DNA from: the human T2T-CHM13v2.0 reference genome, Homo sapiens
Assembly: GCF_009914755.1 (NCBI RefSeq)
Contig: NC_060927.1
DNA length: 64,000 nt
Reading direction: 5' to 3' (one strand)
The notes under the pieces were generated by a model. That model was not told where the DNA came from and ran no database searches. It saw nothing but the letters and a program-made list of their open reading frames with translations. The stretch's first letter is position 1; each line of letters starts with the position of its first letter. Position numbers and translations under genes: made by a program. Positions 26,513 to 44,849 of this stretch are shown here, piece by piece.

Positions 26513-26599
26513 ATTTTTTTTTTAATCAAAGGTAAACATTTACCACATGCACTTTCCAGCAAACAAAACCAATTAACATTGAGTTTCATCAGAACTCAC

Positions 26600-26692
26600 C
26601 AGGCTCATATAAACTATTGGCTGACACCGTGGAGGGTAAAGATTCTCTTCCATCATCAGAGCTCTGCTGAATTCCACTGTCATTACTTCTGA
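26600..26692 (-). CDS. ACAP2: ACAP2 exon 18 (Ser-rich linker): RSNDSGIQQSSDDGRESLPSTVSANSLYEP
   Basis: aaacag|TC ... G|gtgagt, 93 nt, phase 1/1. Confidence 0.93.
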
Positions 26693-27076
26693 CTGTTTTA
26701 AAGAAAAATTAACTAATGATTAAAGTTCATGCCATTTAGAAAACAATCTCCCACAAACAAGGTTTTAAAATGAGCTCTTACACATCAACATGAACTCAGG
26801 CACCACAAGGAGAATGCATTTAATATAATTTTAAGCCTTTTGAACACTTAGCTTATCGAGATATAAATCAATCATAAAACCTGAAAATAAACTTATTTTC
26901 AGAGTTTAACACATCTCATTACTCCATAATATGTCAGGGGTAGTAAAGAGCTTAATTTATTATATGACTGTAAGTAACGTGTAATTCTGAGACAATGGGT
27001 AACATCTAGAGAAATGGCCACACCGCACAATGACCACTGGCACAGACTTGGAATGCTCCACAAGAGTAGTACTTAC

Positions 27077-27181
27077 TACTACGCAGTTTTGAAGAAGTAT
27101 CAAAGTAGGAGAAGAGTGAATCTAGCTCATCAGGACAAAACAGAGACTCCCGCCTGGCCTCGTCGCTATTTACAGCAATCA
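27077..27181 (-). CDS. ACAP2: ACAP2 alternative cassette exon (105 nt): VIAVNSDEARRESLFCPDELDSLFSYFDTSSKLRS
   Basis: CTAAC branch point (27196-27200), ccccag|TG acceptor, A|gtaagt donor, symmetric phase 1/1, stop-free; motif matches ACAP3 RRDSLFCPDELDSLFSYFD as recalled. Confidence 0.85.
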
Positions 27182-27588
27182 CTGGGGACATGCAAGTTAG
27201 CAAAGCACAAAGCAGGCCATAAGAAGGGAAAAGGGCAGGAAAAAACGTTACTGGGAAAAAATTTAGGAGGAAAAAATAGGAAGGAAATCAGGTAGTTAAT
27301 CAGATACTTAGGGCTTTTGAAATGTCAGGTTTATAATTCCCATCTCCCCTTGCATTTTAAGCAGTTTTATTCCTTAGAATATACACATTACCTAGAAAGG
27401 TGAAATATTATGGCATTGTTTAAAGTTAACTATTTTAAAGACACAGAAATTCAGTTTTTCTTAGAATATGTAGAAGGGAACAGGTTTTTAACATTAAAAA
27501 AAACGACAATGGCTATTAGTTCAGGGATTATAAAAGTGATTTGAGCTTAAGAAAATAGCTATAGACACAGTAAGAAAGTTTGCCATAC

Positions 27589-44828: not shown

Positions 44829-44849
44829 CTGATGTGATCGGGCTTTTTC
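44829..44849 (-). CDS. ACAP2: ACAP2 21-nt alternative microexon inserting KKPDHIR into the PH domain
   Basis: Long pyrimidine tract with UGC, then cacgacag|G AAA AAG CCC GAT CAC ATC AG|gtacca; symmetric phase 2/2 matching flanking exons 10/11. Confidence 0.75.

What the first reader, a model, noticed from the sequence alone, without database searches (positions are those of the whole stretch)
27077..27290. 105-nt cassette exon carrying the ACAP3-type SLFCPDELDSLFSYFD motif, with an RBFOX site inside its 3' splice region
Seen: symmetric 35-codon exon with a consensus GTAAGT donor and CTAAC branch point. A TGCATG (27189-27194) sits between branch point and AG, a repressive position for RBFOX, and several TGCT (MBNL-type) motifs lie in the upstream pyrimidine tract. 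A second TGCATG lies ~50 nt downstream of exon 18 (26546-26551). The peptide has an RRES basophilic phospho-motif and an acidic-hydrophobic helix (ELDSLFSYF), a probable short linear docking motif in the ArfGAP-ANK linker. It is absent from the canonical protein as recalled.
Basis: partly seen in the sequence, partly recalled or inferred. Interest (0 to 1): 0.7.

Follow-up and report, generated by a model that had tools for sequence, protein, structure and literature searches.

The report
ACAP2 cassette exon adding a docking motif
This is a real, already annotated optional exon of the human ACAP2 gene; it inserts a short, very strongly conserved peptide, shared with the sister gene ACAP3, that probably serves as a switchable docking site whose partner is still unknown.

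Summary
Window 27077-27181 (minus strand) is a 105-nt, phase 1-1, in-frame cassette exon of ACAP2. It has an AG acceptor, a GTAAGT donor, CTAAC 15 nt upstream of the AG, and TGCATG between them. RefSeq already lists it as an exon of non-selected transcripts. It inserts 35 residues into the ArfGAP-ANK linker.

The only other copy in the human genome is an ACAP3 exon of the same phase. The two share a 16-residue identical block in which all 10 nucleotide differences are synonymous. The block, plus an upstream RRxS site, is nearly invariant in mammalian ACAP2 isoforms and in ACAP3 of teleosts, gar, bowfin and Xenopus.

My reading is a splice-toggled, probably phospho-tunable docking module. The leading candidate partner, at about 30%, is the ER protein VAP:
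- The segment scores 1.5 on an adapted FFAT matrix.
- The complex prediction gave only weak support: 0.38 against 0.10 for the best control.

An LD-like helix is a serious rival. RBFOX/MBNL repression is plausible from motif position and conservation of the flank in mammals, but it is untested, and TGCATG is not enriched in the window. No paper that I could search prints the motif. Interest is moderate.

The parts
27077..27181 (-). 105-nt cassette exon of ACAP2 (phase 1-1). It inserts 35 residues into the ArfGAP-ANK linker.
   Evidence: for sequence and frame. The hub gene table lists it as an exon of other transcripts. One search gives the domain map of an isoform that carries it.
27144..27155 (-). 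Codons of the RRxS-type basophilic site (exon-peptide residues 9-12).
   Evidence: In 75 distinct windows the two arginines appear in 65 and 68 windows and the serine in 73.
27099..27146 (-). Codons of the 16-residue block that is identical in ACAP2 and ACAP3 (exon-peptide residues 12-27).
   Evidence: 10 of 48 nt differ, all at third positions, all synonymous. for conservation.
27090..27128 (-). Candidate FFAT-like motif: six-residue acidic flank (27111-27128) plus seven-residue core (27090-27110).
   Evidence: adapted score 1.5, with the next best site in the protein part encoded in the window scoring 5.0.
27182..27183 (-). AG of the 3' splice site.
27189..27194 (-). TGCATG (RBFOX-type hexamer) between the candidate branch point and the AG.
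   Evidence: Its two codons in the exon's frame are kept in 10 of 10 read-through frames of other species.
27196..27200 (-). CTAAC, the candidate branch point. Its A at 27197 is 15 nt from the AG.
   Evidence: It is the only CTAAC in the 407-nt upstream intron.
27199..27214 (-). Three TGCT (YGCY, MBNL-type) motifs.
   Evidence: One search counts 5 YGCY in the upstream 200 nt, tied highest among the 16 exons.
27182..27281 (-). Upstream 100 nt, 76% pyrimidine, the richest among the 16 exons of the window.
27071..27076 (-). GTAAGT donor. Exon positions -3 to -1 are GTA, which is off consensus.
26546..26551 (-). Second TGCATG, 48 nt downstream of the constitutive exon 26600-26692.

Best explanation
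Shown:
- The feature is an annotated, evolutionarily old, in-frame cassette exon of ACAP2.
- When included, it places a roughly 19-residue module into the linker between the ArfGAP domain and the ankyrin repeats. The module is nearly invariant and is the same one that ACAP3 gene models carry at the homologous position.
- The module is an RRxS-type kinase site followed by an acidic-hydrophobic segment.

Inferred:
- The module is a short linear docking motif, so splicing decides whether ACAP2 has that docking site (about 80%).
[quoted passage not shown] The last 13 residues fit an FFAT-like motif: an acidic flank, aromatic residues at core positions 2 and 3, an acidic residue at 4, and a small residue at 5. 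This would bring the Arf6 GAP to ER contact sites. Phosphorylation of the nearby serines would tune the binding.
- The exon is skipped by default. Its acceptor is weak: the branch point is 15 nt from the AG, the stretch between them is short and poor in pyrimidines, and the exon's first base is off consensus. The branch-point region also carries TGCATG and three TGCT, where RBFOX or MBNL binding would be expected to repress it. I put direct RBFOX repression at about 30%.
For: Exon, frame and position: plus the hub gene table.

Homology with ACAP3:
- A search of the whole genome finds exactly one other copy, on contig C1.
- That copy is a 108-nt exon with the same phase, an AG acceptor and a GTAAGT donor.
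- In gene models it is followed by the homologous serine-rich exon.

Selection:
- In the shared 16-residue block, 10 of 48 nt differ, all at third positions and all synonymous.
- The cassette peptide is invariant except at its second residue in 111 of the 121 windows extracted from the stored ACAP2 proteins, the window's own frame among them. The other 10 read on into the intron, and 3 of them also differ inside the peptide.
- 67 of the 70 profile hits in 1.84 billion representatives are this exon type.
- 117 of 118 named ACAP3-type proteins of teleosts, gar, bowfin and Xenopus carry the motif.
- Across 75 distinct windows, the block from the arginines to the aspartate is nearly invariant.

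FFAT reading:
- The adapted score is 1.5 for both ACAP2 and ACAP3, against 5.0 for the next best site.
- Random expectation for a score of 1.5 or lower is 8e-6 per residue, or 0.0003 per 35 residues (matrix from Table EV4 of PMC7705450; that review's passages give 3 as the cut-off for strong motifs).
- Complex prediction of a rodent VAP-A MSP domain (residues 1-135) with the 34-residue exon peptide gave the verdict 'weak support'.
  - ipSAE was 0.38 in the median run (runs 0.38, 0.38, 0.37), against 0.10 for the best of 3 controls.
  - That mark was reached by 51 of 78 solved complexes and 2 of 108 mismatched pairs.
  - At 0.60 or under it was reached by only 5 of those 78 solved complexes and by all 4 mismatches that passed (of 180).
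  - The runs agree in at least 88% of contacts and the partner's pLDDT is at least 49.

Regulation:
- 10 of 10 other read-through frames keep the codons that cover CTAAC, TGCATG and the AG.
- The ACAP3 exon has no GCATG in its upstream 200 nt.
Against: Against the FFAT reading:
- The strongest conservation falls on hydrophobic residues and a Cys-Pro pair upstream of the core. An FFAT acidic tract does not require these.
- 5 of 75 distinct windows lack an acidic residue at core position 4.
- Core position 5 is a threonine in ACAP2, which costs a point in the matrix.
- The score uses my own adaptation of a matrix published for phospho-FFAT motifs.
- I tried several motif classes by eye before settling on this one.
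- The complex score is weak. The tool was not calibrated on peptides and did not use my alignments. VAP-FFAT complexes are solved, so a pass may only reflect likeness.
- No ACAP1, ACAP2 or ACAP3 appears in the supplements of three VAP/MOSPD2 proteomics papers. One search was searched only in part, with 11 of 17 files unread.
- None appears in the phospho-FFAT lists of PMC7705450 either (2 of 14 files unread).

Against the regulation reading:
- TGCATG is not enriched in the window.
- Conservation just upstream of an acceptor is expected for any branch point and pyrimidine tract.
- Five more divergent ACAP2-type open frames do not show these codons in this frame.
- No expression, CLIP or knock-down data were reachable.
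Confidence: 0.45

Rival explanations
1. The conserved segment binds as an amphipathic helix of the LD-motif kind (recalled consensus LDxLLxxL). It would dock onto a helical-bundle domain such as the FAT domain of FAK or the related domain of GIT proteins, and so target the long ACAP2 isoform and ACAP3 to adhesion or recycling sites.
For: - The invariant residues include hydrophobic positions spaced i, i+3, i+4, i+7, preceded by Pro and an acidic pair.
- The segment fits L-D-x-L-hydrophobic-x-x-hydrophobic.
- Both AlphaFold runs drew the only helix of the roughly 130-residue linker here: 574-576 and 580-585, and 574-583.
- A discussion passage of PMC7159923 lists ACAP2 among ArfGAPs localised to focal adhesions.
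- By my own arithmetic, with the residue frequencies used, the pattern is expected about 3e-5 per residue. That is as rare as the FFAT match.
Against: - Two consensus leucines are phenylalanines here.
- The LD consensus is recalled, not taken from a call.
- Both structure models are poor (mean pLDDT 44.9 and 48.1, and under 30 in the linker), so the helix is not evidence.
- No partner was tested.
- The helical-moment calculation was not run.
Confidence: 0.18
2. The module acts within the protein. It would be a phosphorylation-controlled linker element that changes cargo binding by the ankyrin repeats or GAP activity. This would resemble the Akt site in the ACAP1 linker, which is reported to control integrin beta-1 binding (recalled, not checked here). 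Alternatively, the phosphorylated RRxS site recruits 14-3-3.
For: - The RRxS site is conserved together with the rest of the block.
- The module sits in the linker between the GAP and ankyrin domains.
Against: - No ACAP1 counterpart of the block exists in the genome at E up to 10.
- The structure models give no confident contact.
- Sixteen invariant residues are more than a kinase or 14-3-3 site needs.
Confidence: 0.15
3. Regulation is not by RBFOX or MBNL. The exon is skipped simply because its splice sites are weak, or because of PTB-type binding to the long pyrimidine tract, or because a hairpin holds the donor. On this view TGCATG is kept only because it lies in the branch point-to-AG interval.
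For: - The upstream 100 nt are 76% pyrimidine, the highest of the 16 exons.
- The donor GU is paired in a hairpin of -7.8 kcal/mol, z -1.97, with 9 of 200 shuffles folding as well.
- TGCATG is not enriched in the window.
- In the held main texts, 12 papers name ACAP2 with an RBFOX term, and none of their listed titles and abstract openings concerns splicing of this exon. None of the 26 papers found with 'exon' and 'inclusion' does either.
Against: - The hexamer is exact and sits where binding would compete with branch-point recognition.
- Its codons are kept in 10 of 10 read-through frames.
- Only 1 TCTT/CTCT lies in the upstream 200 nt.
Confidence: 0.4
4. In ACAP2 the exon is a relic that is rarely or never included and has no function of its own. 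Only the ACAP3 copy matters.
For: - It is absent from the selected transcript.
- No paper on it was found.
Against: - The peptide is invariant across named primates, rodents, bats, cetaceans, carnivores and ungulates, while the neighbouring constitutive linker residues vary.
- All differences from ACAP3 in the block are synonymous.
- Splice sites and flank are kept.
Confidence: 0.04

Closest known systems
The homologous linker exon of ACAP3 (contig C1 of the same genome, locus L002)
   Same: - Same phase, AG acceptor, GTAAGT donor with an A before it, and position just before the serine-rich exon.
- The 16-residue block is identical and the RRxS site is shared.
   Different: - It is 108 nt rather than 105 nt.
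- Core position 5 is alanine rather than threonine, and the tail is Gly/Ala-rich rather than basic.
- It has no GCATG in the upstream 200 nt and a less pyrimidine-rich flank, 0.60 against 0.76.
- It is present in the ACAP3 gene models seen, whereas the ACAP2 copy is optional.
FFAT and FFAT-like motifs of VAP partners (OSBP/ORP, CERT, STARD3 and others; passages of PMC7705450 and PMC8306308)
   Same: - Seven-residue core with aromatic residues at positions 2 and 3, an acidic residue at 4 and a small residue at 5, with an acidic flank.
- It lies in a linker between domains and is conserved.
- The adapted score of 1.5 is below the cut-off of 3.
   Different: - The flank is hydrophobic as well as acidic, and it is invariant.
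- The tail of ACAP2 is basic.
- No binding has been shown. The complex prediction gave only weak support, and no ACAP appears in the VAP proteomics files read.
Paxillin-type LD motifs (recalled)
   Same: Acidic residue, Leu-Asp, then hydrophobic residues on one helical face.
   Different: Phenylalanines replace two leucines, the segment has an extra aromatic pair and acidic end, and no binding was tested.
RBFOX-repressed cassette exons with UGCAUG upstream, next to the branch point (position-dependent splicing map; recalled)
   Same: An exact UGCAUG lies 6 nt before the AG and 1 nt after CTAAC, and the flank is conserved in mammal-type sequences.
   Different: There is a single site, no enrichment, and no binding or knock-down evidence.

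Membership tests
ACAP2/ACAP3 shared linker exon (paralogous exon) | Significant sequence match confined to the paralogue. | tested here: met
   the whole genome holds 2 matches at E up to 10, the exon itself and contig C1 (E 9.6e-6, 78% identity over 23 residues).
ACAP2/ACAP3 shared linker exon (paralogous exon) | Same intron phase, splice signals and neighbouring exon. | tested here: met
   both exons are phase 1-1, with AG and GTAAGT, at 105 and 108 nt; in gene models both are followed by the homologous serine-rich exon.
FFAT-like motif (VAP MSP ligand) | Core and acidic flank scoring below 3 on the position matrix. | tested here: met
   score 1.5. This uses the matrix of Table EV4 of PMC7705450, changed by me so that position 4 accepts D/E. 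The original conventional matrix (Murphy and Levine; Slee and Levine) could not be read.
FFAT-like motif (VAP MSP ligand) | Lies in a cytosolic, unstructured part of the protein. | tested here: inconclusive
   It lies between the Pfam domains and has low pLDDT. However, both models are poor overall, so disorder is not established.
FFAT-like motif (VAP MSP ligand) | Conserved across species. | tested here: met
   Five of 75 distinct windows lack the acidic residue at position 4.
FFAT-like motif (VAP MSP ligand) | Physical binding to the MSP domain that depends on the core residues. | not testable with these tools
   Only a prediction exists, with the verdict 'weak support': score 0.38 against 0.10 for the best control. 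The mark was reached by 51 of 78 solved complexes and 2 of 108 mismatched pairs. At 0.60 or under it was reached by only 5 of those 78 and by all 4 mismatches that passed (of 180).
RBFOX-regulated cassette exon | (U)GCAUG within the exon-proximal intron. | tested here: met
   27194-27189; it is the only GCATG in the 407-nt upstream intron, and one more GCATG lies at 26732-26728.
RBFOX-regulated cassette exon | Motif conserved in other species. | tested here: inconclusive
   This could be judged only through translated read-through frames. They are kept in 10 of 10 mammal-type frames and not seen in 5 more divergent frames. No nucleotide alignments were available.
RBFOX-regulated cassette exon | RBFOX binding (CLIP) and a change of inclusion on RBFOX loss. 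| not testable with these tools
   No such data were reachable. None of the 12 papers that hold ACAP2 and an RBFOX term has a listed title or abstract opening about splicing of this exon.
LD motif | Match to LDxLLxxL on an amphipathic helix. | tested here: inconclusive
   The pattern fits if phenylalanine is allowed at two leucine positions. The helix is drawn only in low-confidence models. The consensus is recalled.

The most novel reading that the evidence does not exclude
ACAP3 always, and ACAP2 only when this exon is spliced in, are VAP-tethered Arf6 GAPs that work at ER-endosome or ER-plasma membrane contact sites. The tether would have two switches, alternative splicing and phosphorylation of the adjacent RRxS site. 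This would link Arf6/Rab35 recycling to ER contact sites through a previously undescribed FFAT-like motif.
Probability: 0.27. Interest if true: 0.6.

Novelty: new member of a known kind. Interest (0 to 1): 0.38.

Why it matters
ACAP2 is the Rab35-recruited GAP that switches off Arf6 during endocytic recycling and neurite outgrowth (recalled). What distinguishes its isoforms, and what distinguishes ACAP3 from ACAP2, is not described in any paper I could search.

The module is kept letter for letter from fish ACAP3 to human ACAP2, yet it is optional in ACAP2. That is a strong hint of a regulated protein-protein contact. If the partner is VAP, an Arf6 GAP would be placed at ER contact sites in an isoform-specific way. 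If the partner is a FAT-type domain, the GAP would be placed at adhesions instead. Either outcome can be tested with a peptide pull-down.

The exon itself is annotated, so the advance is functional, not structural.

Tried and rejected
Searches of the literature and supplements that found nothing relevant:
- ACAP2 + 'alternative splicing' + exon gave 45 papers, of which 20 were listed, mostly about circRNA.
- ACAP3 + FFAT gave 0 papers.
- ACAP2 + FFAT gave 3 papers, of which 2 were listed. I opened one, and its only ACAP2 passage does not concern FFAT.
- A six-letter piece of the motif, matched anywhere in the text, gave 0 papers.
- ACAP3 + VAPB gave 3 unrelated papers.
- ACAP2 + RBFOX gave 12 unrelated papers.
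- ACAP2 + exon + inclusion gave 26 papers, none on this exon.
- A six-term search was badly designed and useless.
- The FFAT prediction papers of Murphy and Levine and of Slee and Levine, and the VAPome paper of Cabukusta, are not held. Their lists may already name ACAP3.
- The supplement of PMC8306308 is not readable.

Structure and sequence libraries that gave nothing usable:
- The Protein Data Bank holds no chain with the motif. The one hit has E 1.5.
- The protein atlas gave no usable hit.
- Two AlphaFold runs of the 813-residue isoform, with 25 and 124 aligned sequences, were poor. Mean pLDDT was 44.9 and 48.1, pTM was 0.28 in both, and only the ankyrin repeats were confident. They say nothing about docking in cis.

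Other steps:
- Folding 221 nt of RNA around the exon showed nothing unusual, with z 0.33.
- The upstream constitutive exon finds only itself in the genome, so ACAP1 was not examined further.
- By eye I considered and dropped clathrin-box, AP-2 appendage, GGA/gamma-ear, LIR and nuclear-export patterns, because key positions do not fit. These consensus patterns are recalled.
- A helical-moment calculation was not carried out.

Full report
What is there

Read on the minus strand, the stretch shows these features:
- a long pyrimidine-rich tract;
- three TGCT motifs at 27214-27199;
- CTAAC at 27200-27196 and TGCATG at 27194-27189;
- a short C-rich run and the AG at 27183-27182;
- the exon 27181..27077 (105 nt), followed by GTAAGT at 27076-27071.

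In a script I joined the annotated coding exons of ACAP2 that lie in the window, once without and once with this exon. Both versions give one open frame with a single terminal stop, of 556 and 591 codons. The cassette is phase 1-1 and adds 35 residues.

The hub's gene table lists 27077-27181 as an exon of non-selected ACAP2 transcripts. The exon is therefore annotated and absent from NM_012287.6.

In an 813-residue gibbon isoform that carries the cassette, Pfam places these domains: BAR at 5-238, PH at 268-360, ArfGap at 401-515 and ankyrin repeats at 645-739.

Homology

A six-frame search of the window's own genome with the 34-residue exon peptide found two places at E up to 10. One is the exon itself. 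The other is on contig C1, with E 9.6e-6 and 78% identity over 23 residues.

That second place is an exon of 108 nt with the same phase, an AG acceptor and a GTAAGT donor. The two peptides share an uninterrupted block of 16 identical residues, the block quoted in the finding's title, plus two arginines upstream. Within the block, 10 of 48 nucleotides differ. All 10 are at third codon positions and all are synonymous. This is the signature of selection on the protein in both genes.

Gene models among the search hits show that both exons are followed by the homologous serine-rich exon. No third copy was found, so ACAP1 has no recognisable counterpart.

Conservation

The exon with in-frame intron flanks (53 residues; the tool needs at least 40) found 701 proteins. 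The best 120 are all mammalian ACAP2 isoforms or raw open frames.
- In 111 of the 121 windows extracted from the stored proteins, the window's own frame among them, the cassette peptide differs only at its second residue.
- The other 10 read on into the intron, and 3 of them also differ inside the peptide.
- The neighbouring constitutive linker residues do vary among the same species.

A profile of the two human exons was run against 1.84 billion representatives and gave 70 hits at E up to 0.001.
- 67 hits are ACAP2-type or ACAP3-type copies of this exon.
- The last three are marginal and unrelated.
- That library holds no names, so I cannot say from it which animals these are.

The most divergent full-length hit proved to be a whitefish ACAP3-like protein. 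Of the 118 proteins newly listed around it, 117 carry the motif. Most of them are named; they come from teleost ACAP3/3b, gar, bowfin and Xenopus tropicalis.

Over 75 distinct 32-residue windows from 304 proteins, the stretch from the two arginines to the aspartate after the aromatic pair is nearly invariant. Conservation drops right after it. My extraction pattern fixed a few of the hydrophobic positions, so their invariance is partly built in. The Cys, Pro, Glu and Asp positions were not fixed.

What the peptide may do

The module has two parts: an RRxS-type basophilic site, then an acidic-hydrophobic segment. No solved structure contains it, and no paper in the searchable library prints it.

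Its last 13 residues fit the definition of an FFAT-like motif, the ligand of the MSP domain of the ER proteins VAP-A/B. They comprise a flank with three acidic or hydroxyl residues and a seven-residue core. The core has aromatic residues at positions 2 and 3, aspartate at 4, and threonine at 5 (alanine in human ACAP3).

I scored this with the position matrix of Table EV4 of PMC7705450, changed by me so that position 4 accepts an acidic residue.
- Both paralogues score 1.5.
- The next best site in the part of ACAP2 encoded in the window scores 5.0.
- In 3 million random residues, a score of 1.5 or lower occurred 8e-6 per residue.
- Passages of PMC8306308 give 3 as the cut-off for strong motifs.

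I then fetched VAP-A through its exon in the own genome. I asked for a complex of a rodent VAP-A MSP domain (residues 1-135) with the exon peptide. The verdict was 'weak support'.
- ipSAE was 0.38, 0.38 and 0.37, against 0.10 for the best of three controls.
- That mark was reached by 51 of 78 solved complexes and 2 of 108 mismatched pairs.
- At 0.60 or under it was reached by only 5 of those 78 and by all 4 mismatches that passed (of 180).
- The runs agree in at least 88% of contacts, and the partner's pLDDT is at least 49.
- The tool did not use my alignments and is uncalibrated for peptides.
- It warns that likeness to solved VAP-FFAT complexes can produce a pass.

Several points count against the FFAT reading:
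- The most invariant residues are hydrophobic ones and a Cys-Pro pair in what should be a merely acidic flank.
- 5 of 75 windows lack the acidic residue at position 4.
- No ACAP1, ACAP2 or ACAP3 occurs in the supplements that I could read of three VAP/MOSPD2 proteomics papers (the last only in part).
- None occurs in the phospho-FFAT tables of PMC7705450 either. Those tables would not list a conventional motif in any case.

The spacing of the invariant hydrophobic residues (i, i+3, i+4, i+7, after a proline) suggests a helix. It also fits the recalled LD-motif pattern if phenylalanine stands in for two leucines. That makes an LD-like helix docking onto a FAT-type bundle the main rival.

Two AlphaFold runs of the whole isoform were too poor to help. 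Mean pLDDT was 44.9 and 48.1, and it was under 30 in the linker. They drew the only linker helix on this segment.

I put a docking motif of some kind at about 80%, VAP at about 30% and an LD-like helix at about 18%.

Splicing control

The acceptor looks weak.
- The only CTAAC of the 407-nt intron is 15 nt from the AG.
- The interval between them holds TGCATG rather than a pyrimidine run.
- The exon starts with T.

The donor has a perfect GTAAGT, but the exon positions before it are off consensus. The upstream 100 nt are 76% pyrimidine, the richest of the 16 exons in the window. The upstream 200 nt hold 5 YGCY, tied for the most.

A TGCATG in that position is where RBFOX binding would be expected to hinder branch-point recognition, according to the established position-dependent map (recalled). 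Ten of the 10 other open frames or gene models that read through this part of the intron keep the in-frame codons covering CTAAC, TGCATG and the AG. These include marmot, vole, a whale-like record and one clearly more divergent unnamed record. An eleventh frame starts at the ATG. The ACAP3 exon has no GCATG in its upstream 200 nt.

Against this:
- TGCATG is, if anything, under-represented in the window: 29 copies against 37 +/- 6 expected.
- Any branch point-to-AG interval is conserved.
- Five more divergent ACAP2-type frames do not show these codons.
- I could reach no junction, CLIP or knock-down data.
- The listed titles and abstract openings of the papers found with ACAP2 and RBFOX, or with ACAP2, exon and inclusion, show none on this exon.

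RBFOX/MBNL repression stays a reasonable, untested hypothesis. I put direct RBFOX repression at about 30%.

Verdict

It is also already annotated. What is not in print, as far as my searches reach, is the function of the module. My best guess is a splice-toggled, phospho-tunable docking site, with VAP as the leading candidate partner and an LD-like helix as the main rival.

The unread FFAT prediction tables of Murphy and Levine and of Slee and Levine may already list ACAP3.

Noticed in passing
window 27058-27086 (minus strand): The donor of the cassette sits in a small hairpin. The last exon bases and the GU pair with intron bases +6 to +11, and AAGU forms the loop. The hairpin has -7.8 kcal/mol, z -1.97, and 9 of 200 shuffles fold as well. 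It could add to skipping. Read-through translations suggest that only the first part of the intron arm is widely kept.
   Followed up: partly
window 44829-44849 (minus strand): This is a 21-nt annotated microexon of ACAP2 with an AG acceptor and a GTACCA donor. A preprint names ACAP2 among genes hosting pancreatic-islet microexons (passage of 10.1101/2022.04.02.486809). I did not check whether it is this exon.
   Followed up: partly
window 26728-26732 (minus strand): A further GCATG lies about 36 nt upstream of the acceptor of the constitutive exon 26600-26692, which is 345 nt downstream of the cassette.
   Followed up: no
L003 (own genome, contig C15:86956320-86956583, minus strand): One uninterrupted open frame of 135 residues matches 88 of 109 positions of the MSP domain family (E 1.2e-27). 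The VAP-A and VAP-B loci match only exon by exon. This looks like an intronless VAP-like copy.
   Followed up: no
proteins P0177, P0179, P0181 and P0178, P0180, P0182 (unnamed representatives): These are two small groups of open frames with variant copies of the module. One has Val for Pro and Asn for the core Asp. The other has Ala for the first Asp and lacks the arginines. They may be further paralogues or decaying copies in unnamed species.
   Followed up: no
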